A stretch of DNA of 64,000 bases from Chloroflexota bacterium (GTDB lineage: Bacteria; Chloroflexota; UBA11872; VXOZ01): contig OZ244775.1 of NCBI GenBank assembly GCA_965219505.1, forward strand, positions 1,101,929-1,165,928, in the 5' to 3' direction. The notes beneath the pieces are model-generated. The model saw only the letters and a list, made by a program, of their open reading frames with translations, was not told the origin of the DNA and did not search any database. Shown here piece by piece: positions 7,822 through 47,207 of the stretch. Position 1 is the first letter of the stretch. The number at the start of each line of letters is the position of its first letter. A program made the translations under genes and the position numbers.

Positions 7822-8242
7822 TGTTTAGTCTGTGGAGACATCACACACTTCTGTGAGTATTGAGAGCTATCGTATCTGCTTTGGAGTAAAATGTGTCTGA
7901 CAAGCCCAAGCACAATCCCGACAAGAATCGGAAGCGAGGCCGGCCTGTCATCAAGACCATGCCGCCGAAGATTCCCGATACCCCTGAGAACGTCGCTCGG
8001 GCACTCCTCACTACTCCCCCTAAACCCCGCAAGGCGTCTTAGCCTCTTCGAAAGCCCCTCTGGTTACGATTGTACATAATCCATCTGTATTACAATCTCC
8101 GAACGGAGAAGGGTTGATACGGAGCGCCATGAAAGGCACTACCATGAGAATGTATGATAAAACCTGCTTGGATGTCGGGGACAAGATGAGCCAAAACATG
8201 AACTAGCTTCCTGAGCCCGACCCCAAGAAGGACGTTAAATTC

Positions 8243-8686: not shown

Positions 8687-8724
8687 GACGGCCCCGTGCT
8701 ATTGGGTGAAGTCGACGAACCCAG

Positions 8725-12019: not shown

Positions 12020-12100
12020 AGTGGATGCGCCCTAGAAATAGGGCGGTACATTAACAAGTGAATATGCGCAAGCAGAACTTCAATTTTGCCGATTAAAAGC

Positions 12101-15192
<3,092 letters not shown>

Positions 15193-15431
15193 GCTTCTAA
15201 TCGGCAAATTTGGAGTTCTGCAATCTGTGAATTATTCTCCAAGCGCGAGAATTCTATCACCTAGGTCGGGAAAGTCATGGCGGGTTTGTACGCCAGGCGT
15301 TCCCAATAAAGAACTGCGCATCGTTCACTATTGCACTTTGACATAACGCGTCGTCTCTTGATGTGCGCCTGCTACCCGTCGTTGGGCGGCCTCGCACGTA
15401 CGGCACGTTTCTAATATCCCAGTCAAGAATT

Positions 15432-15550
15432 CCTTGGGTGACAAGGCGAGGGGGGTACACCCGTTCCCATCCCGAACACGGTAGTTAAGCCCCTTAGCAC
15501 TGACGATACTGCACGGGCGACTGTGTGGGAAAATAGGCCGTTGCCCAAGG
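15432..15550 (+). rRNA. rrf: 5S ribosomal RNA
   Basis: CCTTGGGTGACAAGGCGAGGGGGGTACACCCGTTCCCATCCCGAACACGGTAGTTAAGCCCC...GGCCGTTGCCCAAGG with complementary ends; ~240-nt spacer after the 23S. Confidence 0.9.
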
Positions 15551-33199: not shown

Positions 33200-34300
33200 A
33201 CCACTACCTAAGAACTCTCTGAACAAGTCCCTGGCATAGTATCATAGCAAGAAAGCAGCCTATGGTGAGGAGCTGGGTAATGGAGCAGCCGACGTTTGCC
33301 GACCTGGAGTACGCGCAGAAGAAGCGCAAGACGCGGCGGGAGAAGTTCTTGGAGCGGATGGACGCGCTGCTCCCGTGGGCGGAGTTGGAGGCGCGCATTG
33401 CGCCGTACTATCCCAAGGCGGGACGCGGACGGCGGCCGTATCCTTTGTCGGTAATGCTGCGGATCCACTGTGTGCAGGCTTTCTACAATCTGAGTGATCC
33501 TGGGATGGAGGACATGCTGTACGAGGTGGAACCGGTGCGGCGGTTCGTGGGGCTGCGGCTGTCAGAGGCGCTGCCGGACGAGACGACGATCCTGCACTTT
33601 CGGCATTTGCTGGAGAAGCATCGGTTGGGAGAGGGGTTGTTGGCGGAGATCAACGCGCATCTGGCGAGGCGGGGCTTGCGGCTGCGAGCGGGGACGGTAG
33701 TGGACGCGACCATCATCGCGGCGCCGACATCGACGAAGAACCGATCAGGATAGCGAGACCCGGAGATGCGGCAGGTGAAGAAGGGGAACCAGTATTACTT
33801 TGGGATGAAGCTGCACATCGGCGTCGACGCGCAGACGGGGCTCGTGCACAGCTTCACCACCACATCGGCCAACGTGCACGACGTAACGCAAGCGGCGGCG
33901 TTGCTGCACGGCGCAGAGCAGCAGGTGTGGGGAGACGCCGGGTACGTGGGGGTGCAGAAGCGGCCGGAGCATCAGGGACGCGCCGTGACCTGGAAGGTGG
34001 CGCTGAAGCCGGGGCAGCGACGGCAGTTGGCGTCAGAGAGCGCGGCGGCGCTGGCCGAGCAGCGCAAAGCGTCGGTCAGGGCCAAGGTAGAGCATCCGTT
34101 CCTGTGGGTGAAGCGGCGCTTTGGCTACGCCACGGTGCGCTATCGGGGCTTGCACAAGAACACGCAACGGCTGGCGTTGCTGCTGGGACTGACCAACCTG
34201 GTGACGGCCGCACGCCAGTTGGCAACATGACACGGGAGCAGTGCGCCCAAAACACGGCTGGGAGCGGAAACACTCCCCACAGCGCCAAAACATGGGCAAA
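33200..34300. mobile_element. IS5-family element (ends approximate)
   Basis: Encodes an IS5-type transposase; a low-complexity CA-rich tail follows at 34300-34380. Confidence 0.6.
33262..34230 (+). pseudogene. IS5-family DDE transposase interrupted by one in-frame TAG (33751-33753)
   Basis: ORFs 33262-33753 and 33766-34230 are in the same frame. ...[42 protein letters not shown]... follows the E. coli IS5 pattern ...[40 protein letters not shown]... The TAG occupies a codon position, apparently a Q (CAG) equivalent. Confidence 0.8.
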
Positions 34301-34561
34301 ACAACCCCACCTAAATGCCAAACACACACCCCAAACCACCTCGCAATCCCGCACACACCAATAACCCTAGCTCACGCCGAGTTGTTCAGACCTTTCCTAA
34401 CTCCATCCTTCTACGATGTACATTCGTTACTCTGGCAACGGATAGGTCCACTACCCGTCGGTCACAGGGTACCCTGGCGTAGAAGGCCAACGATGTGATG
34501 GTTGCGAATGCTTCCTCAACTAGACACTAAGGTCTGCAAAGCCTTCCCCTCCGCATGGCCA

Positions 34562-35201
34562 CTAAGTTCGCTGCCGATGCGGAGTCAGGGCGGCTGCCAG
34601 ACCGGCAAAGACCGAGCCGGTCAGTCCCAATGTCATGTCTCCCAGCGTGTCGACGTAGGCCGTATCAAGCGAGGAGAGGGGGGCGTAGGCCGTCTCAAGT
34701 TCCGAGGAGAAGCGAATGAATGCGAAGTATGCTGAGAGCTCCCACAGGATTGCGGTTACCGCGCCGAATCCCACAACGTACGCCAGGGTCTGCCAAGGGC
34801 GGACCTTGCTTCTCCACGCCAACGCGCCGACAGCTCCGGAGAGCAGCGCCCAGTTTACGAAGTGGTTCACGTCATCCCACCATACGATTGTGTCGTAGAA
34901 CTCCAGGGCATTGCCTGGCAGTGTCGATGAGGAAAGGCAGCGTGAGCAGGATGTCCGCGGCGTACGGGTACACTGTATCTCGCGCGCGAATTGCCCAAAT
35001 CACAGGGACCACAAAGGCGGCAATTGGATAGGTGGCCAGGCGCCAAATGAAAGCCTTGCCTTCGAATTGCTGCAGTCCTGAGAAGGCGCCGAACGCCAGG
35101 AGGCAGATCAATAGGGTCTTTATGGCTAAACTTACCCAGAAAGCCGTCGGTTGGCCTTGCAGGCCTGAGACTAGCCGGAATCCCATAGCTGGCATTTCCA
35201 A
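34562..35201 (-). pseudogene. Polytopic membrane protein split by a frameshift at ~34870
   Basis: Two abutting - strand ORFs (34872-35201 and 34562-34870) in different frames. Both are hydrophobic, TM-rich and Trp-rich, consistent with one gene. Confidence 0.4.
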
Positions 35202-35252
35202 TGTTTCAGTGAAGTTCGTACTACAAGCCTCCGGGTCTGAGGTGCGAGTGGG

Positions 35253-35325
35253 TGGAGATGAGGAGACTCGAACTCCTGCCCCCCTCCTTGCAAAGGAGGT
35301 GCTCTCCCAACTGAGCTATGTCCCC
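35253..35325 (-). tRNA. tRNA-Ala(TGC)-like second copy, probably a pseudo-tRNA
   Basis: 73 nt identical to the 44795-44870 tRNA-Ala over the D-arm, anticodon arm and T-arm. The 5' acceptor strand is GGGGACA against 3' CATCTCC, so the two basal pairs are mismatched (C6-A67, A7-C66). The genomic 3' end is CCC rather than CCA. Confidence 0.5.
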
Positions 35326-35603
35326 GTGCGGCGGCTAGAATAACAGGGCAATGGTTACTGAATGCCGGCGCTGCTTTTGGTGGTGGGCCACTGGGAAATT
35401 GGGTCGGCGATGCATGAAACAATGCAATACCAGAAAGGGAAGAATAGAAGGCGGGGTATACCGAACGAGTATATGTCATTGCTCCGCTCCGATAGGTAGT
35501 TCAAGGAACTATGGGTCACGGTGTGGGTGGTCGTTACCAAGGCCGCTATAGGGCACCGAGGAAGGGACCCTCTGTGAGTCGATGGCAAACATGACGGGAA
35601 AGT

Positions 35604-36715
35604 TTACGCCCAAACGTTGCGGGCGGTCTCGGCGACGATGCGGAGTTTTGCGTATTGCTGCTCGACCGAGAGAGGATTGCCGACGATGGATGAGCCGAAC
35701 CCGCACTGAGGACTGATGGCGAGTTGCTCGAGAGGGAAGTGGCGGGCAGCCTCGGCGATCCTAGACTCAAGCTCGGATGGGGTCTCCGCGCGAGGTGACT
35801 TGGTCGTGACCAGCCCAAGCGCCACTTGCTTGTCGTCCGGCACGCCGCGCAGAGGCTCGAACGAGCCTGAGCGTGGGTCGTCGTACTCCAGCATCAACCG
35901 CTGCGCGTTCACGCGCTCGAGAACCGGCCCAACAATCCGGTCGTAACTGCCTTCGACCAGCCAACGGCCGCCTTGGTTCCCACGTCAGAGGTGGAATGCG
36001 AACACTACTTCCGAGAAACCGTCCATCACGGCGTTATCCAGCTCGACGCCCTGGGCGATCCAGTCCTCCGCAGACCAACCCTGGGCCTCGTAGAAGGCCG
36101 CCCACACCGGATCCAGCACGAGTGGGTAGTGCGGAGCGTCGAGTTGGATGTAGGTCGCCCCAAGCCTTATCAGCTCTTCGATCTCCCCACGGACTATCCG
36201 CGCGACATCGGCCAAGAACGCATCCAGCGTGGGGTAGGCTGCGGCGGACTTCACCGGTGACCAGAAGTTGGCGAACAGGCTGGGGCTCGGCAGTGTCACC
36301 TTTGCTATGCGGGTGGTGCGGCCGCGCAGGTAGGTGAACTCCTCCGCCGACAGGTGGCGCTTCCGCTGGAGGGGACCGACGACACCCAGAGTCGCAGGAC
36401 GTTCCTTGCGCAAGTCTCCTACCCGTTCGCCGCCCTGCCAATCGCCCCAGAGGAACGCGTCGATATCGAACTCGCCAAAGCCTGCGACTGCCTCGGGCAT
36501 CTGACTCTGGAACGAGAGCCTGCGCATTTCGCCATCGGTGAGGATTTCAAGTCCGGCCTCCTCCTGGGCAGCTACGGCACTATCGACAGCGGCGTCCTCG
36601 GCGCGCTTGAATTCCGAGGGCAAGATTCGCCCGGCCGCAAATTGCTCGCGCGCGGCGAGTAGCTCCGGTGGTCTAATTAGGCTCCCAACGACATCGGCAT
36701 GAGGTAGATTCAGCA
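35604..36715 (-). pseudogene. Cobalamin-independent methionine synthase (MetE) C-terminal-domain-like protein with an in-frame TGA (35985-35987) at the conserved H-x-C zinc-ligand position
   Basis: ORFs 35985-36869 and 35604-35912 are in the same frame. Read-through gives ...VVFAFHL[TGA]RGNQGGRWLVEGSYDRIVGPVLERVNAQRLMLEYDDPRSGSFEP...SPQCGFGS. MetE-family proteins have H-x-C-x-G-N here. Likely true start is MLNLPHADVVGSLIRP (~36715). Confidence 0.55.
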
Positions 36716-37015
36716 TGGCGAATAGCCCCGCATATCTTGGCGGTTTGGGACAGACAAGCCGGGCCTGCCGAGTCGGTGGATTTCCAAGACGATCTGGGCA
36801 GCGACAACGCGGCGCTCCATCCAACTCTGGGGCTCGCCTGCGGCAAGACCAACAGCAGCAACCGGGCAAGCGCTGCCACGCGAGCGTGCAATGACTGACT
36901 CCATGCGGCTCATAGCAGCCAAGGGCTTGACTTCAAGGGTGTGACGGCAACTCCGGATGCAGAATCCTGCGTCTGCCGACATGTATGAACCCCGCCGAAC
37001 CATTATTGTATCAGG

Positions 37016-37453
37016 ATGGTGGACCAGAGGAAGGCCGATAGCAGGCAGGCATCCACCCGGCCACACACAGGCGCAGACGGCAAGGTGATCGCAAGTACCG
37101 TGTTCACGTATGAGGCAAAGAGGAGTGCATTCCATGCTCTGGACGCCTCCACCGGGGATGAGCTGTGGAGCCTCGGATCTGACTGGGGCCTGTCGTCGAT
37201 CATGGTGGTTGACGGAGTGGTGTACGCCCATTCCCTGTCTGGCTATCTCCACACGCTGGAGGCCCGAACCGGGGAGCCGATCTGGAGCCTCGACATCGGC
37301 TATCAGTGGCGGCGACGACCCTTCGCCGTTTCTGAGGGTGTGGTCTACGTGGGTTTACCGGCCAGCAACCTGGACCGAGGGCCAGGGCAGGCCATCCAGC
37401 GGCGTTTACGCCTTTGCCGCCCCTGGCCGCAAGTAATTGATGTCAGGGAATAG
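37016..37453 (+). CDS. PQQ-repeat beta-propeller fragment (~3 blades), probable gene remnant
   Basis: Repeats AFHALDASTGDELWS and YLHTLEARTGEPIWS plus VVYAHS / VVYVGL strands. Too short for a full propeller. Confidence 0.35.
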   Translation: MVDQRKADSRQASTRPHTGADGKVIASTVFTYEAKRSAFHALDASTGDELWSLGSDWGLSSIMVVDGVVYAHSLSGYLHTLEARTGEPIWSLDIGYQWRRRPFAVSEGVVYVGLPASNLDRGPGQAIQRRLRLCRPWPQVIDVRE

Positions 37454-37683
37454 GAAATGAAGACCGCAATGTGTAGATAGGGCCTTGAGTTCTTCGTCTT
37501 CCAATCAACACAAAGAGTACGGTTCTCAAGGGCAATAGATTTGGATGCAACTAGGGTCCAAGCTACTTGGAAGAGTTGTCCCCCAGGATATAGTCCGCTT
37601 AACGGTTGGCAGTGGCCGGCAGGAGTGTCAATTGCAAGGATAATCCGGCAGTGTTAGAATCGATGCTCGGAAGGTAGAGCCTT

Positions 37684-38130
37684 ATGAACGCGTCTCTCAA
37701 TGGGTTCCGCATCATGGTCGTGGTCGGCGTTCTCGTGAACGCCGCATTCTGGGGGCCTGCATTGATTGCGCCTCAGATGATCAATGATACTCTCGGATTC
37801 GACCCCGGTTACCACACCGTTTGGCTGCGGAACGTTGGGATGCTACTGCTGATTGTGTCCATCACCAATGTCGCCGCCGCGCTTGACCCATATCGCTACC
37901 GATTGTTCGCGTGGCTTGTGGTCGTAGGGCGACTCATCGCGGCGTCGTTCTTCCTGGAGATTTGGCTGTTCGATGCTCTCGAATCGTCCGATAGGCCCAA
38001 TGCGTTCAAGTGGTTCTTCCTAACCGACGTTTCGCTTGGCGCCATCAAGGGGATCTTGCTCTATGCTGGACTGAAGCTGCGCGATGCCGAGAGTAGCCCT
38101 GATATCTCACAGAAGAACCGGATGGTGTAG
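37684..38130 (+). CDS. Small polytopic membrane protein (4 predicted TM)
   Basis: 148 aa with four hydrophobic stretches; the stop abuts the start of the OYE gene. Confidence 0.45.
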   Translation: MNASLNGFRIMVVVGVLVNAAFWGPALIAPQMINDTLGFDPGYHTVWLRNVGMLLLIVSITNVAAALDPYRYRLFAWLVVVGRLIAASFFLEIWLFDALESSDRPNAFKWFFLTDVSLGAIKGILLYAGLKLRDAESSPDISQKNRMV

Positions 38131-38134
38131 CGAA

Positions 38135-39442
38135 ATGGACGTGATCTTCGAGCCGCTCGAATTCCGAAATCTTACAGTGAAGAACCGCATCTTCCGGTCG
38201 AACATCGCGGGACGTTTTGACAATTACGATGGCTCCGGCAACCAGGCTCGCATCAATTGGGAGCTGAAGTTTGCCAAGGGCGGCGTAGGCGCAATTATCT
38301 CTTCCTTTGTTCCGGTGACGATACAGGGGCGCATAGTACCCAACTACGCGACCATTCACCGCGATGAGCACATTGCGTTCTGGCGAGAACTCGGAGAGCG
38401 GGTTCACGAGCATGACTGCAAGTTCATCTTGCAGCTTAGTCACTCCGGGCGGCAACGTGACATCCGTGGTGTCGAGTATGGCAATGGCATCAGCTCCACG
38501 GGCAAGGCTGAGCCGCTGCACGGCTTCCAGTGTGAGAGCATGACGTTGCGGGACGTTCGCGAGACCGTGGACGCCTTCGCTCAGGGGGCGAGACGCGCGC
38601 GAGAAGCCGGCCTAGACGGAGTTGAGCTTCACGGAGCCAACGGATATCTAATTACGCAGTTCCTCAGCTCGGCGATAAACGACCGCAAGGATGACTACGG
38701 CGGCTCGTTGGAGAACCGCGCGAGGTTCGTGCGAGAGATCGTTCGAGCCATCCGGTCGGAGGTAGGGGCGGATTTCCATCTTCAAATGAAGATCAGCGCG
38801 ACGGACTACAACAACGATGTGTTTCCCTGGGAACACAGGGGGACCACCATCGGCGAGTCGGTTCAGGTCTGCAAGTGGCTGGAAGAGGACGGTGTGGACG
38901 CCATTCACGTATCGGCCGGCAGCATGTTTCCCCATCCCCGCAACCCTGCTGGGGATCTGCCTATGGGTGAACTGGCGCAGAATTACGGCGTGATGTTATC
39001 CAGCGGCGTACACACTCACCGCAATCACTGGATCTTCCGCAAGTGGCCCTTCCGCAATCTCTTCCACTGGCGTTGGACACGAGCGCATCAGGGACGGATT
39101 GAGGGGATTAATCTGCCGGACTCGGCAGCCATCAAGAATGCCGTCAACCTTCCGGTCATCTGCACCGGCGGGTTTCAGACGGCATCGGTCATCCGAGAAG
39201 CCATTATGAGCGGCCAGTGCGACGCAGTAAGCATCGCCCGCCCCCTGGTGGCCAACAATGATCTGGCCAAACTGTTCGCGGCCGGCCACGATCGTGCGCT
39301 GAGGCCATGCACCTACTGTAACAAATGCCTCGTGAACACGGCAAACAATCCGCTGGGGTGTTATGAGGAGGCTCGGTTCGACTCTCGGGAGGAGATGATC
39401 CGCGAGATCATGTCGGTGTTCGAGCCTCGTCCGTTCGAGTAG
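38135..39442 (+). CDS. Old-Yellow-Enzyme family FMN ene-reductase with C-terminal 4Fe-4S motif (2,4-dienoyl-CoA reductase N-terminal-like), lacking the FAD/NAD(P) reductase domains
   Basis: TIM-barrel OYE signatures (FLQLSHSGRQ, HGANGYLITQFLS, DYGGSLENR) and CTYCNKCLVNTANNPLGC (C-x2-C-x2-C-x11-C) at the C-terminus. Start taken at ATG 38135 (MDVIFEPLEF). Confidence 0.8.
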   Translation: MDVIFEPLEFRNLTVKNRIFRSNIAGRFDNYDGSGNQARINWELKFAKGGVGAIISSFVPVTIQGRIVPNYATIHRDEHIAFWRELGERVHEHDCKFILQLSHSGRQRDIRGVEYGNGISSTGKAEPLHGFQCESMTLRDVRETVDAFAQGARRAREAGLDGVELHGANGYLITQFLSSAINDRKDDYGGSLENRARFVREIVRAIRSEVGADFHLQMKISATDYNNDVFPWEHRGTTIGESVQVCKWLEEDGVDAIHVSAGSMFPHPRNPAGDLPMGELAQNYGVMLSSGVHTHRNHWIFRKWPFRNLFHWRWTRAHQGRIEGINLPDSAAIKNAVNLPVICTGGFQTASVIREAIMSGQCDAVSIARPLVANNDLAKLFAAGHDRALRPCTYCNKCLVNTANNPLGCYEEARFDSREEMIREIMSVFEPRPFE

Positions 39443-39498
39443 CCGCTGGCAGGTGCGGTGCGAGTGCAGCCTGAGATCGACATCTTGAGGGGGCAGCT

Positions 39499-40941
39499 AT
39501 GACGAGGGGCAAGAGGATAGCACTGGCGGCAGGCATAGCCGTGGTTCTCGTCGTGCTGGGGATTGGCATTCCCACACTGGTCTGGTTTCAAAGGAGTGTG
39601 CCTGAGGTGCATGATGACCCGAGTGCTCATTTCAAGTATGGCTCTATTGGCTCGGAGGGCAGGGACGGTATTCCCTACTGGGTCTGGCTGGTCTTGCCGG
39701 AAGTGTTTCCGGAGCATCTGCCCGACGGCCCGGGAGAGGGTTATAGCAGATTTGGCTTCATCTTCGAGGCTGAGTCGCCTATGGGCCGTCCAATCGGCAC
39801 ATCCTATCGGGAAGAGCCGATACCTATGGTCGGTCTCAACTGCGCCGTGTGCCATACGGGTACCATCCGCGAGTCAGCGGAAGCCGCAGAGGAGGTCGTC
39901 TTGGGAATGCCGGCCCACCAATTCGACCTGCAGCAGTATTTGAACTTCCTCTTCGCGGTTGCCAATGACAGCCGGTTCGACGCGGATACCCTCATCCCGG
40001 CCATCGAGAGGGTGCACCCCGCTTTCTCCTGGATCGACAGCTTGTTTTACAGGCACATAGTCATTCCACGCACTAGGGATGAAATATTGAAGGCAGCCGA
40101 CCAGTTTGCCTGGATGAATGCGTTCCCTGCCGCCGGTCCGGGACGAGTGGATACGTTCAACCCGTACAAATTCAATGTACTGGGGTTGGAGGAGGAGGAC
40201 CCTCATGTCGGCACCGCCGACCTGCCGTCGCTGTGGAATCAAGCGCCGCGGGAAGGAATGTGGCTGCACTGGGACGGCAACAACGACTCGGTGGAGGAGC
40301 GGAACAGAAGCGCGGCCATCGGCGCGGGCGCATCGCCGGAATCGCTGGACGCGCCCGCCATGGAGCGGATAGCGGAGTATATAGCTGCGCTTCAGCCTCC
40401 CGCCTTTCCCGACGATAGGATAGACCGTGCCAAGGCACGGGCAGGCGAGGAAGTTTACGAACAACGCTGTGCAGTCTGCCATTCTTTCGATGGCGCAAGG
40501 GTTGGGCAAGTGGTACCTATTGAGGAAATCGGCACCGATCCGGAACGCTTGGATTCCTTCACCCCTGAGCTTGCAGATGAGATGAACACGCTGGGAGAGG
40601 GCCATCCCTGGAAATTCTCGAATTTCCAGAAAACCAGTGGATACTCAAACATGCCTCTGGATGGCATTTGGCTTCGCGCTCCCTATCTTCATAACGGATC
40701 GGTTCCCACTCTACGAGACTTGCTTGCACCACCTGAACAGCGTCCGACCGTGTTCTACCGGGGGTACGCTGTCTATGACTATGAGAACCTCGGCTTTGTG
40801 TCGAGCGGCGCGGAGGCGGAGAAGGCAGGCTTCAGGTTCGACACCGCCGAGCGTGGGAATAGCAACCAGGGGCATCTCTACGGCACGGACCTGAACGCTA
40901 GTCAAATCGAAGCCCTGCTGGAGTATCTGAAGACGCAGTAA
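39499..40941 (+). CDS. Membrane-anchored di-haem cytochrome c, peroxidase-like (CCP/MauG or DHOR family)
   Basis: N-terminal TM. Two CxxCH motifs (CAVCHTG, CAVCHSF) ~210 aa apart. C-terminal WLRAPYLHNGSVPTLRDLL resembles the CCP-family APYxHxG...TL segment. Confidence 0.6.
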   Translation: MTRGKRIALAAGIAVVLVVLGIGIPTLVWFQRSVPEVHDDPSAHFKYGSIGSEGRDGIPYWVWLVLPEVFPEHLPDGPGEGYSRFGFIFEAESPMGRPIGTSYREEPIPMVGLNCAVCHTGTIRESAEAAEEVVLGMPAHQFDLQQYLNFLFAVANDSRFDADTLIPAIERVHPAFSWIDSLFYRHIVIPRTRDEILKAADQFAWMNAFPAAGPGRVDTFNPYKFNVLGLEEEDPHVGTADLPSLWNQAPREGMWLHWDGNNDSVEERNRSAAIGAGASPESLDAPAMERIAEYIAALQPPAFPDDRIDRAKARAGEEVYEQRCAVCHSFDGARVGQVVPIEEIGTDPERLDSFTPELADEMNTLGEGHPWKFSNFQKTSGYSNMPLDGIWLRAPYLHNGSVPTLRDLLAPPEQRPTVFYRGYAVYDYENLGFVSSGAEAEKAGFRFDTAERGNSNQGHLYGTDLNASQIEALLEYLKTQ

Positions 40942-40995
40942 AGTAACGGCAGCGCGTGGGATTTCGATAACAGGACAGAAGCCGGAGGCGCACAT

Positions 40996-42312
40996 TTGAA
41001 GCAGGCTATCAAAGGCTTTCCCTCGACCGGATTCGTTGACCTTCTGCGGCTACTAGGCCAATGTGCGGGAAGCTTCGCCAAAGGGCCTCGTTCCTTCAAC
41101 TTCGATTTGACTTTCCAAGACTGGCTTGGAAGACAGGCCCGCCGTACTCGAAGCGAGAACGTTGTCCTAAACCTATACTTCAAGAAATTCCTCGTAGTCA
41201 CGGGACGCGAGTTGTCGGCGCGCATTCTGGCTCAGCCTCCCTACGTCCACGGCTACGTGGAAGGAAGGACGAAAGCCCGGGCGATGTCGTTTCTCGCTCC
41301 GCGGGCTCTGACGATAACGCATGGTGAGCAGTGGCGGCGTCTTAGGCGGTTCAACGAAGCTGCGCTCCGAGTAAGCGGGGCAGATGCGCGAACGCAGTTC
41401 ATCGTGGACGGGGTGAACAAGGCATTTCAAGCGCCGGTGTCTGACATCGATGACATCAGGGATTGCATGGCCCAAACTATGCTCATGGTGGTCTTCGGGT
41501 CTGACAGTGCCCCTGCCCACCTGGTGGAGGATGTCCAGGTTCTGTTTGAGCACGTGCAGAATCCCGGTAGAAGAATACTGTTCGGGTGGAGACAGGCAAA
41601 ACGCCGGAGGCGGTTCTATGAGGCGCTCCGCCGACTCTGGAGAGAGAGCACGGAGTCGGGCGAGCCCAGCCTGCTCTCCACGGCTAGAGGCGCGTCTTAC
41701 AATGGCAGCTTTACCGAAGAGGAACTCATACAGCAGATCCCGCACTGGATGTTTACATTCACCGGCTCCGGTACCGACCTGCTGGCGCGAACCATTGGGA
41801 TAGTGGCGTCCAGAAACGAGGTCTATGACAGGGTTCATGCCGAAGCGACGGGGCGGAATTCAACGAGTCTTGCGTCGGCAGCCATGCGAATAGAGTACCT
41901 GGAGGCCTGTCTGCTGGAAGTCTGCCGTCTGTATCCCCCGGTGACGCGCACCTTTCACGCAGCCCCTCAAGGGGACACCTTCGACGGCTTCCGAATACCG
42001 GCAGGGTTGGAGATTCTGCACTGCTTCACGGCGAACCAACGGGATGTCTCCCGCGACCCAACGGCCAACGACTTCCGGCCCGAGAGATGGATGGAACCTG
42101 GAAGCAACGCAGAGGCCATGTATCCCAGCCTCTTTCTCGGAGGCGCGAGGAACTGCCCCGGCAAGGGTCTCATTCTTCTGGTGTGTAAGGCCGCCATACT
42201 GAATTTGATTCAGTACGGTCGAATACGCTCTGAATGTCCAGCCCTATCGCAAGACCCGCTACCACGCTCGTATCCAGAGAACGGCCTCAGGTACCACGTA
42301 CAACCCTATTGA
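40996..42312 (+). CDS. Cytochrome P450 monooxygenase
   Basis: ExxR motif EVCRLYPP and haem-thiolate loop FLGGARNCPGKGL. Standard-length Cys loop, so not CYP74-type. Confidence 0.85.
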   Translation: MKQAIKGFPSTGFVDLLRLLGQCAGSFAKGPRSFNFDLTFQDWLGRQARRTRSENVVLNLYFKKFLVVTGRELSARILAQPPYVHGYVEGRTKARAMSFLAPRALTITHGEQWRRLRRFNEAALRVSGADARTQFIVDGVNKAFQAPVSDIDDIRDCMAQTMLMVVFGSDSAPAHLVEDVQVLFEHVQNPGRRILFGWRQAKRRRRFYEALRRLWRESTESGEPSLLSTARGASYNGSFTEEELIQQIPHWMFTFTGSGTDLLARTIGIVASRNEVYDRVHAEATGRNSTSLASAAMRIEYLEACLLEVCRLYPPVTRTFHAAPQGDTFDGFRIPAGLEILHCFTANQRDVSRDPTANDFRPERWMEPGSNAEAMYPSLFLGGARNCPGKGLILLVCKAAILNLIQYGRIRSECPALSQDPLPRSYPENGLRYHVQPY

Positions 42313-42365
42313 GCCTCCGAATCTGTGCCCACGGGCGCATTGGTTCACCACATAGGAGGAGGACA

Positions 42366-44726
42366 ATGAGCAACTCGAATGAAGATGCGATGCGGTTGAT
42401 CGGGGAACGCAGGTTCCGCGACGCTCTCGGACTGCTGAGAGCGCATCTGGATGCAGACTCCAATGGCGAAACTCATGCACTCGCCGGGGCCGCGCACTAC
42501 GGCCTACAGGAGTACGCCGAGGCTGCCGAAAACTACGAGCGAGCGCTGCAGCTTGATCCGAATAGGCGGACGACGTGGCAGGACATGTTGATGCAGTCCC
42601 GCGCGAACGCGGTCGCTGAAGTGAATGTGCATGTCCCGGACATATCTTACTTCGATCGCGACACGCTGCTCGCTAGGCCGGTCGTACAGGATGGTTCTCT
42701 GCCCGCCACTCCGATGGATCCGCCGGGTCGCGGACTCTTCGGATGGGTTCGATGCATAGTGGGGAACGCGGGAGGAGCGATCGTTTCGTTAGCGATGAGC
42801 GGAGTGACTCAGGCCCTTGGTCGGTTGGCCGGATACCGCGACGAGGTGTGGACAAACTGGTACCATAGGCCATATTTCATCGGAATCCTCACCCTGGCAT
42901 ACATGCGCGAGCAACTCAACAGGAATAACCTCAAGAGCACCTATCCTCCGGGAGCCTTGATAGGCTTTCAGCCGGAGGGACAGTCTCCACCTCCGGGGGT
43001 GAGACACTTTCGCACCGCCGACGGAAGCTGGAACAACCTGGCCGACCCCAAAGAGGGCGCCGCAGGTACTCGCTTCCCCCGCAACGTGAACAACGACGTG
43101 ATTCGCCCGGAGACGGGTGATGGTCTGATGACGCCGAATCCGAGAGAGCTAAGCCGCATCTTCTTGGCAAGGGGAGAGCAGATGAAGGAAGTGCCATTCC
43201 TTAATCTGCTGGCCGCGTCATGGATCAACTTCCAAAACCATGATTGGGTGCATCACGGAGAGCCTCTCATAAATGAGGTGCATGAGATACCGCTGGCCGA
43301 AGACGATCCGGCTCGGAAGAAGCACTGGCAGACCAGGATGTTCGTCGGCAAGACCCAATCCGATCCTACCCGTATGTCCGACCGAGAACGTACCCCCATA
43401 ACGTTCATCAATGAGGTCACCCACTGGTGGGACGGCTCACAGATATATGGGAGCGATCAGGAGACGTTGGACAAACTCCGAACCGGAGTAGGCGGCAAGC
43501 TGAGGCTCGATGACGCCGGCAATCTGCCGCTCGACGACAAAGGGATCGAGCAGACCGGCTTCACAAGGAATTGGTGGATTGGTCTCGCCATGCTTCACAC
43601 TCTCTTCACCAGGGAGCACAACGCCATCTGCGACCGGCTGAAGGAAGCCTATCCCGATTGGGACGACGCGCGGCTGTTCAATGTGGCGCGCCTTATCAAT
43701 GCGGCCGTGATGGCCAAGATCCACACCGTCGAATGGACCCCGGCCATTCTTCCGAATCGCGGGCTCGACTCCGGTCTGAACGCCAACTGGTACGGCCTGT
43801 TCACCACCTACAGGGCGCCTGAGAACAGGAAGACGGTCGCGGACATCAACGTGCGGAACCCAGAGATGGGAGGTGTTGTAGGCAATCCGATCAACAAGCA
43901 CGGGCAGCCCTACGGCCTCACCGAGGAGTTTGTGGAAGTCTATCGCCTGCACTCGCTATTGCCCGAGACAATCCGAATCAGAAGCCTTGGCAATGACAGC
44001 GTGGCCGAGGACGTGCCGTTCGTCGAGACTCGCCAGGCAGGTTCCGGCCAGCTTACCTCGAAGTCTTCAATGGCCGATCTCTTCTACTCGTTCGGCGTCC
44101 AGCATCCGGGTCAGTTGGTGCTGAACAACTACCCCGATTTCATGCGAGAGCTCAGCGTTCCTGGCAACCCGCTCTTCGATATGGGTGCAGTGGACATTCT
44201 TAGGGCGCGCGAAAGGGGGGTGCCCAGATACAACGAGTTCAGGCGTCAGTTGGGACTCAACCCCATTCGCACATTCGACGACCTTACCGACGATGGAGAC
44301 AAGGTGCGGAAGCTCAAGGATGTGTATGGGGACCAACCGGATGATGTGGAGAAGCTCGACTTACTGATCGGCACTCTTGCTGAAGGGCATCGCCCCACTG
44401 GGTTCGGTTTCGGCGAAACGCTATTCCAGATATTCATTCTGAACGCGACTCGAAGACTTCAGGCGGACCGCTTCTACACCGACAGCTACAACGAACGGAC
44501 GTACACGAAGGAAGGCCTTGCATGGATCGATGGTTCCGATCTCAAGACCGTCATACTCCGCCACTTTCCTGAACTCTCTCAAACGGGACTGGGGAACATC
44601 AAGAACGCCTTTGAGCCATGGGATACCGGAGAGAGACTCGACCCGGAACGCCATCCGCTCCGCGAGTTCGACAGGGACCTGGGACCGGACCCATTGCTGG
44701 GTGATGCTTGGACGAGTCGACGCTAG
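42366..44726 (+). CDS. Haem dioxygenase/peroxidase of the animal peroxidase-cyclooxygenase superfamily (alpha-dioxygenase / COX-like fatty-acid oxygenase)
   Basis: Distal-His region LLAASWINFQNHDWVHH (cf. alpha-DOX AAWIQFMIHDWIDH). Proximal-His region HTLFTREHNAICDRLKEAYPDWDDARLFNVARLINAAVMAKIHTVEWT (cf. COX TIWLREHNRVCD). Start ATG at 42366 with GGAGGAGG RBS. N-terminal TPR-like segment. Confidence 0.8.
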   Translation: MSNSNEDAMRLIGERRFRDALGLLRAHLDADSNGETHALAGAAHYGLQEYAEAAENYERALQLDPNRRTTWQDMLMQSRANAVAEVNVHVPDISYFDRDTLLARPVVQDGSLPATPMDPPGRGLFGWVRCIVGNAGGAIVSLAMSGVTQALGRLAGYRDEVWTNWYHRPYFIGILTLAYMREQLNRNNLKSTYPPGALIGFQPEGQSPPPGVRHFRTADGSWNNLADPKEGAAGTRFPRNVNNDVIRPETGDGLMTPNPRELSRIFLARGEQMKEVPFLNLLAASWINFQNHDWVHHGEPLINEVHEIPLAEDDPARKKHWQTRMFVGKTQSDPTRMSDRERTPITFINEVTHWWDGSQIYGSDQETLDKLRTGVGGKLRLDDAGNLPLDDKGIEQTGFTRNWWIGLAMLHTLFTREHNAICDRLKEAYPDWDDARLFNVARLINAAVMAKIHTVEWTPAILPNRGLDSGLNANWYGLFTTYRAPENRKTVADINVRNPEMGGVVGNPINKHGQPYGLTEEFVEVYRLHSLLPETIRIRSLGNDSVAEDVPFVETRQAGSGQLTSKSSMADLFYSFGVQHPGQLVLNNYPDFMRELSVPGNPLFDMGAVDILRARERGVPRYNEFRRQLGLNPIRTFDDLTDDGDKVRKLKDVYGDQPDDVEKLDLLIGTLAEGHRPTGFGFGETLFQIFILNATRRLQADRFYTDSYNERTYTKEGLAWIDGSDLKTVILRHFPELSQTGLGNIKNAFEPWDTGERLDPERHPLREFDRDLGPDPLLGDAWTSRR

Positions 44727-44794
44727 ATAGAGGCGACTGACACTCACAGCACCAACTGGAACCTCAACTCGAAGGTTCTTGATTTCGTCAAGTC

Positions 44795-44870
44795 TGGTGG
44801 AGATGAGGAGACTCGAACTCCTGACCCCCTCCTTGCAAAGGAGGTGCTCTCCCAACTGAGCTACATCCCC
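44795..44870 (-). tRNA. tRNA-Ala(TGC), CCA encoded, G3:U70 present
   Basis: GGGGATGTAGCTCAGTTGGGAGAGCACCTCCTTTGCAAGGAGGGGGTCAGGAGTTCGAGTCTCCTCATCTCCACCA. Perfect cloverleaf, anticodon TGC. Confidence 0.9.
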
Positions 44871-45088: not shown

Positions 45089-45166
45089 TGGTGGGCCACT
45101 GTGGATTTGAACCACAGACCTCGCCCTTATCAGGGGCGCGCTCTAACCAAGCTGAGCTAGTGGCCC
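45089..45166 (-). tRNA. tRNA-Ile(GAT), CCA encoded
   Basis: GGGCCACTAGCTCAGCTTGGTTAGAGCGCGCCCCTGATAAGGGCGAGGTCTGTGGTTCAAATCCACAGTGGCCCACCA. Anticodon GAT. Confidence 0.9.

Positions 45167-45676: not shown

Positions 45677-47207
<1,531 letters not shown>

What the first reader, a model, noticed from the sequence alone, without database searches (positions are those of the whole stretch)
35253..44870. Two tRNA-Ala(TGC) sequences in direct orientation bracket a 9.5-kb segment; the distal copy has a mismatched acceptor stem
The copy at 44795-44870 is a perfect tRNA-Ala with G3:U70 and CCA. The copy at 35253-35325 is identical across the D-arm, anticodon arm and T-arm. Its 5' end reads GGGGACA (against GGGGATG), so the two basal acceptor pairs are broken, and its genomic 3' tail is CCC. 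Similarity stops right at the tRNA borders. Direct tRNA repeats at both ends are the usual footprint of a tRNA-targeted genomic island (attL/attR) or of an rrn-spacer rearrangement. No integrase lies inside the segment, but a degenerate IS5 sits just outside at 33.2-34.3 kb. The enclosed segment holds the oxygenase cluster and several pseudogenes.
Basis: partly seen in the sequence, partly recalled or inferred. Interest (0 to 1): 0.5.

Follow-up and report, generated by a model that had tools for sequence, protein, structure and literature searches.

The report
Two stacked insertions behind one tRNA-Ala gene
The two alanine-tRNA copies are real, but the far copy is an old decaying pseudo-tRNA found even in relatives that lack the oxygenase genes. 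The oxygenase genes are a separate 7.8-kb island that inserted right after the working tRNA, which is an ordinary kind of event with a few unusual details.

Summary
tRNA-Ala(UGC) lies at 44795-44870 (-). A 96%-identical copy, Ala', lies at 35250-35325 (-), with broken 6:67 and 7:66 pairs and a CCC tail.

The 9.5 kb is not one island. Relatives from a different species or genus (L081, L083, L084) have 16S-Ile-Ala followed directly by the sequence found in the window at 37016 and below. So the oxygenase island is 37017-44794 (7,778 bp). It sits exactly after the tRNA's CCA and ends in a 7-nt exact repeat of the tRNA 3' end (12 of 15 nt matching) at 37017-37031.

The island's tRNA-side end carries a ~50-nt motif. 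The same motif follows CCA of five tRNA species in other Chloroflexota (meta)genomes, next to different cargo. No recombinase was found.

Ala' lies 1.7 kb behind Ala in island-free relatives too, with a different lesion in each lineage (A14G; a stem deletion; loss of the 5' half; anticodon GUA). The real Ala is identical everywhere. Ala' is therefore a pseudo-tRNA that closes an older 1.7-kb cassette. That cassette (a MetE-II-like gene with an in-frame TGA) is 97% identical between genomes whose flanks are 75-90% identical.

The 16S/23S separation is a trait of the whole class. This is a known kind of event and of low to moderate interest.

The parts
44795..44870 (-). Functional tRNA-Ala(UGC), the last gene of the 16S-tRNA-Ile-tRNA-Ala unit. 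Its 3' CCA end is the insertion point.
   Evidence: ARAGORN. Rfam 69.4 bits. The sequence is 100% identical in L081, L082, L083, L084 and L002. Full cloverleaf fold.
44745..44794 (-). Conserved ~50-nt terminal motif of the island: GACTTGACGAAATCAAGAACCTTCGAGTTGAGGTTCCAGTTGGTGCTGTG. It starts directly after CCA and contains CTTGA/TCAAG inverted repeats. It is inferred to be the element-derived att arm.
   Evidence: Absent from the empty sites in L081, L083 and L084. The same motif follows CCA of tRNA-Val (L001) and tRNA-Ile (L005), a bare GGCCCACCA (L004), and a second copy in L001. There are 14 unique instances in genomes and metagenomes, after Ala-UGC, Ala-GGC and Glu-CUC tRNAs or after bare CCCACCA. 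The window holds one copy.
37017..44794 (.). Oxygenase genomic island, 7,778 bp including the distal repeat, inserted exactly after the CCA of tRNA-Ala.
   Evidence: L081 9687-12325 aligns to window 37031-34396, directly abutting tRNA-Ala; the same holds for L083 and L084. Homologous clusters lie in other chromosomal contexts in L001, L003, L004, L005 and L007.
37017..37031 (-). Distal att-like repeat TCCTCTGGTCCACCA, against tRNA 3' end TCCTCATCTCCACCA (12 of 15 matching; TCCACCA exact). It is followed by the ancestral flank downstream of the tRNA.
   Evidence: After it, the window reads TCCTGATACAATAATGGTTCGG, matching L081/L083/L084 TCCCGACTCAATAATGGTTCGG, which in those genomes directly follows the tRNA.
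42234..44726 (+). Island cargo: animal-type haem peroxidase with an N-terminal TPR.
   Evidence: Pfam An_peroxidase, 1e-109. 92% amino-acid identity to L001, and 73-75% to MAGs of other phyla.
40996..42312 (+). Island cargo: cytochrome P450.
   Evidence: Pfam p450, 7e-22.
39499..40941 (+). Island cargo: RoxA-like dihaem cytochrome c protein.
   Evidence: Pfam RoxA-like_Cyt-c and Cytochrom_C.
38084..39442 (+). Island cargo: Old-Yellow-Enzyme-type FMN oxidoreductase.
   Evidence: Pfam Oxidored_FMN, 1e-63.
37684..38130 (+). Island cargo: small hydrophobic protein with no family match. It lies in a block (37697-38200) that is 96.6-96.8% identical to L001, L004 and L005.
37016..37453 (+). Truncated PQQ/BamB-like beta-propeller ORF at the distal end of the island. 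It suggests that this end has been eroded.
   Evidence: Pfam PQQ_2, 2.6e-8, 145 aa only. Homology to L001 starts at about 37115-37195.
37499..37696 (.). 198-bp window-specific insertion relative to L001 and L005, just upstream of the first intact island gene. It holds two sigma70-like matches on the + strand.
   Evidence: alignment gap. (no other copy). (promoter-like sites at 37567-37594 and 37632-37660; the count is not above chance).
35326..37016 (.). Older 1.7-kb cassette between tRNA-Ala and Ala'. It is present in all relatives examined and is much more similar between genomes than its flanks.
   Evidence: Identity is 96.6-97.2% to L081-L084 and 88% to L002. Flanks are 75-90% and 75-80% respectively. 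Its content comes from an Amidohydro_2-MetE-II locus like those in L113 and L115.
35604..36716 (-). MetE-II-like (cobalamin-independent methionine synthase II family) gene of 370 codons. It has one in-frame TGA at 35985-35987 where homologues have the Cys of FAFHLCRGN. This is probably selenocysteine, not a pseudogene.
36760..37001 (.). Fragment of an Amidohydro_2 gene; a remnant carried in with the cassette.
   Evidence: blastn to L113 8735-8972 and L115 9317-9478, inside called Amidohydro_2 genes.
35250..35325 (-). Ala', a pseudo-tRNA-Ala(UGC). It is full length, with C6.A67 and A7.C66 mismatches, U47G and a CCC tail. It forms the distal boundary of the older cassette.
   Evidence: The orthologues carry different lesions: L081 has A14G and a CTT tail (64.6 bits). 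L082 has A14G and a 1-nt deletion in the anticodon stem (50.8 bits, called Cys). L083 has lost the 5' half. L002 has U1, anticodon GUA and G67 (56.1 bits, called Tyr).
33212..34395 (+). IS5-family insertion sequence with two ORFs. It is present only in the window and is not part of either insertion at the tRNA.
   Evidence: Pfam DUF772 + DDE_Tnp_1. Absent from L081, L082 and L083, whose alignments jump from window 34396 to about 33211.
45089..45166 (-). tRNA-Ile(GAU), between the 16S gene and tRNA-Ala.
45678..47207 (-). 16S rRNA gene heading the 16S-Ile-Ala unit. No 23S follows it.
   Evidence: Rfam 1413 bits. Same arrangement in L081 and L083.
12102..15549 (+). Separate 23S-5S unit about 30 kb away on the other strand, with its own processing-stem complementarity. 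It is unlinked from the 16S.
   Evidence: The 23S flanks pair with each other (12072-12109 against 15183-15221), and nothing there resembles the sequence after Ala or Ala'.

Best explanation
The 9.5-kb interval is the product of two successive insertions behind the rrn-linked tRNA-Ala(UGC) gene of an uncultured Dehalococcoidia (Chloroflexota) bacterium.

(1) The older event. A 1.7-kb cassette lies between the working tRNA-Ala and a full-length second copy, Ala'. The cassette holds a MetE-II-like gene with an in-frame TGA and an amidohydrolase fragment. Two complete tRNA copies flanking an insert is what a Campbell-type single crossover would produce, if a circular DNA carrying a tRNA-Ala copy recombined with the chromosomal gene. 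This step is inferred. Only the copy next to tRNA-Ile stays under selection. Ala' decays independently in each lineage, so it is a pseudogene. The cassette still moves between lineages, probably by recombination anchored in the tRNA sequences. This step is also inferred.

(2) The younger event. A 7.8-kb island (37017-44794) inserted exactly after the CCA of tRNA-Ala and pushed the cassette and Ala' 7.8 kb away. Its cargo is an OYE reductase, a RoxA-like dihaem cytochrome, a P450 and an animal-type haem peroxidase. The crossover lay within TCCACCA, which is now repeated at the distal end. The tRNA-proximal end carries a ~50-nt arm with CTTGA/TCAAG inverted repeats. That arm marks a family of elements which insert after the CCACCA end of at least five tRNA species and pile up in tandem.

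The insertion was presumably made by a site-specific recombinase that is either encoded elsewhere or was lost from the eroded distal end. The island as it stands is a recombinase-less, at best cis-mobilizable, element.

Shown: the boundaries, the repeats, the empty sites, the recurrence of the motif, and the lineage-specific lesions of Ala'. Inferred: the recombinase, the direction of events (insertion rather than precise excision in the relatives), and the Campbell-type origin of Ala'.
For: Empty sites: L081, L083 and L084 have 16S-Ile-Ala directly followed by the sequence at window 37016 and below.

Junctions:
- empty site: ...CATCTCCACCA|TCCCGACTCAATAATGG
- window, proximal: ...CATCTCCACCA|GACTTGACGAAATCAAG
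- window, distal: ...CTCTGGTCCACCA|TCCTGATACAATAATGG

Mobility of the cluster:
- In L001 it sits behind rpoBC-tRNA-Val, flanked by a 55-nt direct repeat 8,273 bp apart.
- In L005 it sits behind tRNA-Ile.
- In L004 it sits behind a bare GGCCCACCA.
- In L003 a degenerate motif lies at its distal end.

Motif: 14 unique CCACCA+motif junctions follow Ala-UGC, Ala-GGC, Val-GAC, Ile-GAU and Glu-CUC tRNAs, or bare (A/G)GGCCCACCA. They lie next to unrelated cargo: Mrr, GmrSD, Type ISP R-M, AAA ATPases, and LRR and cadherin-like proteins.

Ala':
- It is present in L081, L082, L083 and L002, and its 40-nt 5' flank is identical in the window, L081 and L082.
- Each lineage has different lesions, while the true Ala differs at 0 of 76 positions in all six genomes.
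- The acceptor stem is lost in the fold of the window copy.

Cassette: identity is 96.6-97.2%, against 16S 95.8%, ITS 88-89%, and flanking regions 75-90%. MetE-II homologues elsewhere sit in unrelated contexts without a tRNA-Ala.

Precedent: tandem islands at the 3' end of ssrA in Dehalococcoides, some lacking an integration module (PMC3146451).
Against: - No integrase or recombinase was found in the island, in the neighbouring window ORFs that were scanned, or next to most motif junctions. The only one seen (L107) sits between two R-M specificity genes and is probably a shufflon recombinase.
- The exact repeat is only 7 nt.
- The island's G+C content does not differ from its surroundings.
- The direction of the event cannot be told from the data: the relatives could have lost the island by precise excision.
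- The Campbell-type origin of Ala' has no direct support, and no circular form or donor element carrying a tRNA-Ala was found.
- The D-arm and T-arm of Ala' are unchanged in four lineages. Pure neutral decay does not predict that. Gene conversion from Ala, or some residual function, is possible.
- In L002 the peroxidase lies next to Ala' without a recognisable motif.
Confidence: 0.75

Rival explanations
1. One reading: the whole 35.25-44.87 kb segment is one tRNA-targeted genomic island, and its attL and attR are the two full-length tRNA-Ala copies.
For: There are two direct tRNA-Ala copies with similarity ending at the tRNA borders. The enclosed oxygenase cluster is clearly mobile.
Against: - L081, L083 and L084 carry Ala and Ala' 1.7 kb apart with no oxygenase cluster between them.
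- L002 has the peroxidase on the other side of Ala'.
- The oxygenase island has its own distal repeat at 37017-37031, followed by the ancestral tRNA-Ala trailer.
Confidence: 0.03
2. rrn-spacer rearrangement: Ala' is the relic of the original 16S-Ile-Ala-23S spacer, or of a second rrn operon. It was left behind when the 23S-5S unit was split off and inverted.
For: The 16S-Ile-Ala unit lacks a 23S, and the 23S-5S unit lies about 30 kb away on the other strand. An inversion with one end next to Ala' would put the 23S behind it.
Against: - The same 16S-Ile-Ala-cassette-Ala' arrangement without a 23S occurs in relatives whose 16S is 95.8% identical.
- In L002 Ile-Ala is not even next to a 16S; hisS lies upstream.
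- Nothing upstream of the 23S resembles the sequence after Ala or Ala'.
- Unlinked rRNA genes are a class-wide trait of Dehalococcoidia.
- The DNA between Ala and Ala' derives from an amidohydrolase-MetE-II locus, not from a spacer.
Confidence: 0.07
3. Ala' is a second, functional tRNA-Ala gene (or a tRNA-like RNA with another role), not a pseudogene.
For: - It still scores 57 bits in the window and up to 64.6 bits in L081.
- G3:U70, the D-arm and the T-arm are intact in four lineages.
- In L002 the anticodon stem changed by a compensatory pair, C31>U with G39>A.
Against: - Every lineage has a different disabling lesion: two acceptor mismatches, A14G, a stem deletion, loss of the 5' half, and U1.C72 with anticodon GUA.
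- The 3' tails vary (CCC, CTT, CCA), whereas every tRNA gene examined in these loci except L002's tRNA-Ile encodes CCA.
- Between the window and L081, Ala' differs at 6 of 76 positions, while the cassette differs at about 3% and the true Ala at 0%.
Confidence: 0.08
4. No site-specific recombinase is involved. The oxygenase cluster spreads only by homologous recombination of flanking DNA between related genomes, and the short TCCACCA repeat is a microhomology by-product of illegitimate recombination.
For: No recombinase gene was found. The repeat is short. The cassette next door does seem to move by homology.
Against: - The same 50-nt arm abuts the last base of five different tRNA species and bare CCCACCA cores, with unrelated cargo and unrelated outer flanks.
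- Homologous exchange cannot place one sequence at the same nucleotide of different tRNAs.
- Repeated illegitimate events would not hit the same nucleotide 14 times.
Confidence: 0.07

Closest known systems
tRNA-gene-targeted genomic islands and integrative elements with crossover at the extreme 3' end of the tRNA. This corresponds to the 3'-end 'sublocation' in Williams' classification of tRNA/tmRNA integration sites, recalled from my own knowledge; the sublocation concept is also mentioned in PMC3146451.
   Same: - The insertion leaves the tRNA intact.
- A short direct repeat of the tRNA 3' end lies at the far boundary.
- The island is absent from the same site in relatives.
- The cargo is accessory metabolism.
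- Islands occur in tandem.
   Different: - No integrase gene lies in or beside the island.
- The exact repeat is only 7 nt.
- The same element arm is found behind at least five tRNA species, whereas known integrases are usually specific for one tRNA.
- The island's base composition is not atypical.
Dehalococcoides ssrA-specific genomic islands (ssrA-GIs; McMurdie et al. 2011, PMC3146451).
   Same: - Same bacterial class.
- Islands accumulate in tandem downstream of a small stable-RNA gene.
- Each island is bounded by a short direct repeat of that gene's 3' end, with extra conserved nucleotides beside the repeat.
- Some islands lack the integration module and are regarded as cis-mobilizable elements gathered by accretion.
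   Different: - The target here is the CCA end of tRNAs, not the T-loop of tmRNA.
- No DsiB/DsiA serine-recombinase module was found.
- The conserved flanking sequence is a different ~50-nt motif.
- The cargo is oxygenases, defence genes and eukaryote-like proteins rather than reductive dehalogenases.
Unlinked rRNA genes of Dehalococcoidia (Brewer et al., bioRxiv 10.1101/705046).
   Same: 16S (with tRNA-Ile and tRNA-Ala) and 23S-5S are separate transcription units, about 30 kb apart here. Relatives show the same arrangement.
   Different: That work does not describe insertions behind the orphaned spacer tRNAs. Here the free 3' end of the 16S-Ile-Ala unit has become an insertion hot spot: oxygenase island, TIR-gene insert, Cache-protein gene and MetE-II cassette.
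Pseudo-tRNA or partial tRNA duplicates left at island borders (attR-type remnants).
   Same: Ala' is a non-functional direct copy of the target tRNA at the far end of inserted DNA.
   Different: It is full length (76 nt plus 3 nt of 5' flank) rather than a 15-60-nt 3' fragment. It is retained across genomes whose 16S genes differ by about 4%.

Membership tests
tRNA-targeted genomic island (site-specific integrative element) | Inserted within or at the 3' end of a tRNA gene, leaving a complete tRNA. | tested here: met
   The island starts at the nucleotide after CCA of tRNA-Ala (44794). The tRNA is identical to that of island-free relatives.
tRNA-targeted genomic island (site-specific integrative element) | Direct repeat of the tRNA 3' end at the distal boundary. 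| tested here: met
   37017-37031 reads TCCTCTGGTCCACCA, against tRNA TCCTCATCTCCACCA. That is 7 nt exact and 12 of 15 overall, followed by the ancestral trailer.
tRNA-targeted genomic island (site-specific integrative element) | Empty site in related genomes. | tested here: met
   L081, L083 and L084 have the tRNA-Ala directly followed by the sequence homologous to window 37016 and below.
tRNA-targeted genomic island (site-specific integrative element) | Integrase or recombinase gene carried by the element. | tested here: not met
   No recombinase domain was found in the island ORFs. There was no tblastn match to the one integrase seen near a motif, in L107. Small and overlapping ORFs were not scanned exhaustively.
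tRNA-targeted genomic island (site-specific integrative element) | Atypical base composition relative to the host. | tested here: not met
   G+C is 57-59% inside and outside the island.
tRNA-targeted genomic island (site-specific integrative element) | Excision to a circular form with an attP junction. | not testable with these tools
   This needs the raw reads or PCR. Junctions of the expected attP form (GGCCCACCA+motif without a tRNA) exist in metagenomes, but they can equally be tandem-array junctions.
Functional tRNA-Ala gene (applied to Ala', 35250-35325) | Intact 7-bp acceptor stem and universal core nucleotides. | tested here: not met
   C6.A67 and A7.C66 mismatches, with the acceptor stem lost in the MFE fold. 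Orthologues carry A14G, a stem deletion, or loss of the 5' half.
Functional tRNA-Ala gene (applied to Ala', 35250-35325) | Sequence conservation among related genomes. | tested here: not met
   Different lesions occur in the window, L081, L082, L083 and L002. The true Ala is identical in all of them.
Functional tRNA-Ala gene (applied to Ala', 35250-35325) | G3:U70 AlaRS identity pair and UGC anticodon. | tested here: met
   Both are kept in the window copy. In L002 the anticodon reads GUA, and ARAGORN calls the L082 copy Cys(GCA) after a 1-nt deletion in the anticodon stem.
Canonical rrn operon spacer (16S-Ile-Ala-23S) | A 23S rRNA gene downstream of the spacer tRNA-Ala. | tested here: not met
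   The 23S is at 12102-15192 on the other strand. No 23S lies behind Ala or Ala' in L081-L083 or L002.
Dehalococcoides ssrA-GI family | Integration at ssrA and a DsiB/DsiA serine-recombinase integration module. | tested here: not met
   The target is a tRNA. No tmRNA was found in the window. No serine-recombinase domain was found in the scanned ORFs.
Dehalococcoides ssrA-GI family | Tandem accretion of islands separated by repeats of the target's 3' end. | tested here: met
   L001 has two CCACCA+motif junctions 8,273 bp apart. L003 has a degenerate one at the cluster's distal end. L098 has two CCCACCA cores about 70 nt apart.
Integron cassette array | IntI integrase, attI site, and structured attC sites with RYYYAAC/GTTRRRY ends. 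| not tested
   This was considered only as an analogy. No IntI was seen, the units are up to 8 kb, and the motif does not show the attC end consensus by eye.

The most novel reading that the evidence does not exclude
The CCACCA+50-nt junctions may mark a previously undescribed accretion system in Chloroflexota that are probably sponge-associated. Its properties would be as follows:
- A trans-acting, still unidentified recombinase recognises the generic acceptor end of tRNAs (…CCACCA) rather than one particular tRNA.
- It stacks recombinase-less cassettes behind many tRNA genes. Each cassette is closed by a tRNA-end mimic (GGCCCACCA) and opened by the CTTGA/TCAAG arm.
- The cassettes carry oxygenase clusters, restriction and defence genes, and eukaryote-like proteins.

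Functionally this would resemble an integron whose attI is any tRNA 3' end. In the same spirit, the full-length Ala' would serve as a homology handle that lets the MetE-II cassette be swapped between genera.
Probability: 0.15. Interest if true: 0.65.

Novelty: new member of a known kind. Interest (0 to 1): 0.3.

Why it matters
It corrects the anatomy of the locus. The oxygenase cluster (OYE, RoxA-like cytochrome, P450, haem peroxidase) is a discrete 7.8-kb mobile unit with nucleotide-exact borders. That helps anyone tracing how this cluster spreads among the uncultured bacteria that carry it; homologues at 73-92% amino-acid identity occur in several phyla.

It shows that the orphaned end of a split rRNA operon (16S-Ile-Ala) has become a landing pad for foreign DNA.

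It provides a searchable ~50-nt signature for finding variable islands behind tRNA genes in these Chloroflexota.

It warns annotators that the second tRNA-Ala is a pseudogene, and that ARAGORN calls its orthologues Tyr or Cys. It also warns that the neighbouring 'truncated' MetE-II gene probably reads through a selenocysteine codon.

None of this changes general understanding. tRNA-anchored islands and unlinked rRNA genes are both well known.

Tried and rejected
- **Motif near Ala'.** I looked for the 50-nt motif next to the window's Ala' and in L002. There is no convincing copy, so the older cassette cannot be assigned to the same element family.
- **Recombinase near motif junctions.** I scanned ORFs flanking motif junctions in L004, L085, L087, L098, L102, L103, L104, L107 and L109. 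Only L107 has a Phage_integrase. It sits between two TaqI_C specificity genes, so it is probably an R-M shufflon recombinase, and it has no homologue in the window or the other loci.
- **Viral contigs.** A motif scan gave 0 hits.
- **Conserved sequence preceding GGCCCACCA in L004.** It shows no known RNA family in Rfam at E<=1, so it is not a tmRNA or tRNA remnant that Rfam can recognise. The similar sequences in L098 and L104 were not scanned.
- **More Ala' orthologues through MetE-II homologues.** P0043, P0051, P0015, P0009, P0004 and P0019 all sit in unrelated contexts without a tRNA-Ala. This was still useful, because it shows the cassette is captured DNA.
- **The 198-bp insert (37499-37696) as a MITE.** No other copy exists.
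- **23S upstream region against sequence after Ala or Ala'.** No similarity.
- **SECIS-like hairpin after the TGA.** The simple fold is not better than shuffles (z = 0.02), so the selenocysteine reading rests on the Cys/TGA correspondence only.
- **Literature search for accession prefix MKWU.** It returned only irrelevant papers. The sponge origin of the relatives is therefore my inference from record names such as Candidatus Poriferisodalis and from LRR/cadherin-type cargo. It is not a verified fact.

Full report
**1. The observation**

ARAGORN finds three tRNA genes, all on the minus strand:
- tRNA-Ile(GAT) at 45089-45166
- tRNA-Ala(TGC) at 44795-44870
- a second tRNA-Ala(TGC) at 35251-35325

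Rfam scores them at 65.6, 69.4 and 57.3 bits. It also places a 16S rRNA gene at 45678-47207 (-) and a 23S-5S pair at 12102-15549 (+).

The two Ala sequences form the only long direct repeat in the window: 78 nt, 96% identical, 9,545 bp apart.

On the tRNA strand the distal copy (Ala') differs from the proximal one at U6>C, G7>A and U47>G. It ends ACCC instead of ACCA. Three nucleotides (CAC) upstream are shared, and nothing downstream is shared. The changes create C6.A67 and A7.C66 mismatches. The minimum-free-energy fold of Ala' loses the acceptor stem, whereas the proximal copy forms a full cloverleaf.

**2. Gene content and organism**

Between the two copies, from the Ala' side to the tRNA-Ala side, lie:
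- a MetE-II-like gene on the minus strand
- a truncated PQQ/BamB-like ORF
- a small hydrophobic ORF
- an Old-Yellow-Enzyme FMN reductase
- a RoxA-like dihaem cytochrome c
- a P450
- an animal-type haem peroxidase with a TPR domain

. Two ORFs of an IS5-family transposase lie just outside.

A scan of species-representative genomes with the peroxidase gave best matches of 92%, 87%, 82% and lower amino-acid identity in Dehalococcoidia/Chloroflexota MAGs. Matches of 73-75% occurred in MAGs of other phyla, including Candidatus Poriferisodalis and Latescibacterota. The window therefore comes from an uncultured Dehalococcoidia bacterium. A sponge-associated origin is my guess from these record names and from the LRR and cadherin-like cargo seen later. 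It is not verified.

**3. The oxygenase cluster is mobile and ends at tRNA 3' ends**

DNA and translated comparisons show the cluster (window about 37.1-44.8 kb) in quite different chromosomal surroundings:
- In L001 it lies behind rpoB-rpoC-tRNA-Val(GAC).
- In L005, extended by a Tle1-like gene, it lies behind tRNA-Ile(GAU).
- In L004 it lies behind a bare GGCCCACCA.
- In L002 only the peroxidase (with a Tle1-like gene after it) aligns to the window cluster, and it lies on the other side of an Ala'-like sequence.

In the window, L001, L004 and L005, about 50 nt directly after the CCA are conserved: GACTTGAYRAAATCAAGAACYTTYGAGTTGAGRTTCCAGTTGGYGCTGT. The tRNA in front of it differs. L001 has a second copy of CCACCA plus this motif 8,273 bp away, at the other end of the cluster. 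L003 has a degenerate copy in the same position.

**4. Empty sites give nucleotide-exact borders**

Homologues of the MetE-II-like protein led to contigs from relatives. The 16S genes of L081 and L083 are 95.7-95.9% identical to the window's.

In L081, L083 and L084 the order is 16S (beyond the contig end in L084), tRNA-Ile, tRNA-Ala, and then immediately the sequence that lies in the window at 37016 and below. For example, L081 9687-12325 aligns to window 37031-34396.

The junctions read, in tRNA orientation:
- empty site: …CATCTCCACCA|TCCCGACTCAATAATGGTTCGG
- window, proximal: …CATCTCCACCA|GACTTGACGAAATCAAG…
- window, distal: …GGCCTTCCTCTGGTCCACCA|TCCTGATACAATAATGGTTCGG

So the oxygenase island is 37017-44794 (7,778 bp). 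It is inserted exactly after the CCA. It is bounded distally by TCCTCTGGTCCACCA, which matches the tRNA end at 12 of 15 positions and has TCCACCA exact. The 50-nt motif is absent from the empty sites, so it came in with the island.

This is the standard signature of site-specific integration at the extreme 3' end of a tRNA gene. The data cannot decide the direction of the event. The relatives could equally have lost the island by precise excision, but that would imply the same mechanism.

**5. The motif marks a family of elements**

A metagenome scan for CCA-NN-CTTGAYRAAATCAAGAAC gave 25 loci. Those where CCACCA precedes the motif and the motif extends beyond the pattern are taken as genuine. 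Together with the genome loci they give 14 unique junctions:
- The motif follows tRNA-Ala(UGC) in L102 and L105, tRNA-Ala(GGC) in L096/L107, and tRNA-Glu(CUC) in L103.
- It also follows bare (A/G)GGCCCACCA cores with no tRNA, in L085/86, L087/100, L092/109, L098 and L104.
- Including the genome loci, five tRNA species are used.
- The motif contains CTTGA/TCAAG inverted repeats, and similarity ends about 50 nt from the CCA.

Genes beside these junctions are unrelated to each other. They include Mrr and GmrSD nucleases, Type ISP and other R-M genes, AAA/AbiEii-like ATPases, and LRR and cadherin-like proteins.

The tRNA-less junctions have the form expected of attP, or of junctions between islands stacked in tandem. 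That matches the two-junction arrangement in L001.

No recombinase was found in the window island or next to the junctions. The one exception is a Phage_integrase in L107, which sits between two R-M specificity genes and has no homologue in the other loci.

The closest described precedent is in the same class. Dehalococcoides accumulates tandem islands behind ssrA, bounded by 20-bp repeats. Some of those islands lack the integration module and are interpreted as cis-mobilizable elements (PMC3146451).

**6. What Ala' is**

Ala' is not the border of the oxygenase island. It is present 1.7 kb behind tRNA-Ala in island-free L081. It is also present in L082 and L083, and in the more distant L002, where flanking genes are 75-80% identical to the window's. 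The window, L081 and L082 share an identical 40-nt 5' flank.

The true tRNA-Ala is identical in all six genomes. Ala' carries a different defect in each lineage:

| Genome | Defects in Ala' | Rfam / ARAGORN |
|---|---|---|
| window | C6, A7, G47, CCC tail | 57.3 bits |
| L081 | A14G, CTT tail | 64.6 bits |
| L082 | A14G, 1-nt deletion in the anticodon stem | 50.8 bits, called tRNA-Cys |
| L083 | 5' half lost, plus indels | not called |
| L002 | U1, G67, anticodon loop rewritten to GUA with a compensatory stem change | 56.1 bits, called tRNA-Tyr |

Between the window and L081, Ala' differs at 6 of 76 positions, while the surrounding cassette differs at about 3%. This is the pattern of a pseudogene. 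The untouched D-arm and T-arm suggest occasional gene conversion from the working copy. A residual role cannot be excluded.

**7. The older cassette**

The 1,691 nt between tRNA-Ala's ancestral trailer and Ala' (35326-37016) hold two things.
- One is the MetE-II-like gene (35604-36716, -).
- The other is a fragment (36760-37001) of an Amidohydro_2 gene that neighbours MetE-II homologues in other genomes, L113 and L115. Those homologues sit in unrelated contexts with no tRNA-Ala. The cassette is therefore captured DNA.

The cassette is more similar between genomes than anything around it:

| Comparison | Cassette | Other regions |
|---|---|---|
| window vs L081-L084 | 96.6-97.2% | 16S 95.8%; spacer 88-89%; region after Ala' 75-81%; neighbouring genes 78-90% |
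| window vs L002 | 88% | flanks 75-80% |

So the unit bounded by the two tRNA copies has been exchanged between lineages more recently than its surroundings.

Two complete tRNA copies with no flanking homology are what a single crossover between a circular DNA carrying a tRNA-Ala copy and the chromosomal gene would leave. Later exchange could be anchored in the invariant tRNA sequences. Both of these steps are inference.

Other genomes show further insertions at the same points. L082 has a TIR-domain gene directly after tRNA-Ala and 1.5 kb directly after Ala'. L002 has a Cache-domain gene before tRNA-Ala. The site is an insertion hot spot.

**8. The rRNA context**

The 16S-Ile-Ala unit has no 23S behind it in the window, L081 or L083. 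In L002 the Ile-Ala pair is not even next to a 16S.

The 23S flanks pair with each other as a processing stem, and they resemble nothing after Ala or Ala'.

Unlinked rRNA genes are reported as a conserved trait of the class Dehalococcoidia (bioRxiv 10.1101/705046). A recent spacer rearrangement is therefore not the explanation.

**9. Verdict**

- The locus is a stack of two insertions behind tRNA-Ala, plus a later IS5 insertion (33212-34395) beyond Ala'.
- This is a new member of a well-known kind. Its less usual traits are the absence of a recombinase, a 7-nt core at the very CCA end, one conserved arm used behind five tRNA species, and a full-length pseudo-tRNA retained as the far border of an exchangeable cassette.
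- Interest is low to moderate.

Noticed in passing
window 35604-36716 (-), TGA at 35985-35987: The MetE-II-like gene is one continuous 370-codon frame with a single in-frame TGA. The TGA sits where full-length homologues (P0004, P0015) have the Cys of FAFHLCRGN, which I take, from my own knowledge of MetE, to be the H-x-C zinc-ligand motif. Many homologue clusters are called as 243-aa 'truncated' proteins, probably for the same reason. This is probably a selenocysteine codon, not a pseudogene. A simple fold shows no significant SECIS hairpin (z = 0.02).
   Followed up: partly
L002 13672-13747 (-); L082 2887-2961 (+): ARAGORN calls the orthologues of Ala' tRNA-Tyr(GTA) and tRNA-Cys(GCA). In L002 the anticodon loop changed from UGC to GUA while the stem kept pairing through a compensatory C31>U / G39>A change, and G3:U70 is retained. 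If this RNA were expressed, it would be an alanine-accepting tRNA that reads Tyr codons.
   Followed up: partly
window 37697-38200: This 504-bp block (small hydrophobic ORF plus the start of the OYE gene) is 96.6-96.8% identical to L001, L004 and L005, whereas the rest of the island is 80-86% identical. It may be a recombination tract or an unusually constrained stretch.
   Followed up: no
window 37499-37696: A 198-bp insertion relative to L001 and L005 lies directly upstream of the first intact island gene. No other copy exists in the window or the fetched loci. It contains two sigma70-like promoter matches, one with an extended -10, and could provide the cluster's promoter. The match count is not above chance.
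   Followed up: partly
window 33212-34395: An IS5-family element (DUF772 and DDE_Tnp_1 in two ORFs) is a window-specific insertion, absent from L081, L082 and L083. The two-ORF layout could be a frameshift arrangement rather than decay.
   Followed up: partly
one search hit list (L008, L009, L011, L043): The haem peroxidase has 73-75% amino-acid identity to genes in MAGs of other phyla: Candidatus Poriferisodalis and other Acidimicrobiia, and Latescibacterota. That is nearly as close as some Dehalococcoidia copies. It suggests cross-phylum transfer among bacteria that may share a habitat.
   Followed up: no
L082 212-1367 and 2962-4515: A different insertion carrying a TIR-domain gene sits exactly after the CCA of tRNA-Ala. 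Another 1.5-kb insertion sits exactly after Ala', and it starts with a motif-like TCTTGACGG…AGAACC. Both tRNA copies therefore act as landing sites.
   Followed up: partly
L004 12567-12640, L098 1262-1330, L104 1144-1210: About 45 nt preceding the GGCCCACCA core (…CCGAAAGTTCGCAATACAGTACAC…) are conserved between three unrelated loci. This may be the other arm of the att site. Rfam finds no match in the L004 stretch; L098 and L104 were not scanned.
   Followed up: partly
window 5133-5725 and 8238-8830: Three adjoining inverted-repeat pairs (103-189 nt, 71-75% complementary) flank a 2.5-3.4-kb stretch. This may be a pair of diverged inverted gene copies.
   Followed up: no
window 34396-35250: The region after Ala' holds two adjacent minus-strand ORFs (34562-34870 and 34872-35201) with no Pfam match. 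The aligned region in L082 (about 4796-5333) overlaps a gene called DUF2238. It may be a frameshifted membrane-protein gene. It is the most diverged part of the locus, at 75-81% identity to relatives.
   Followed up: no
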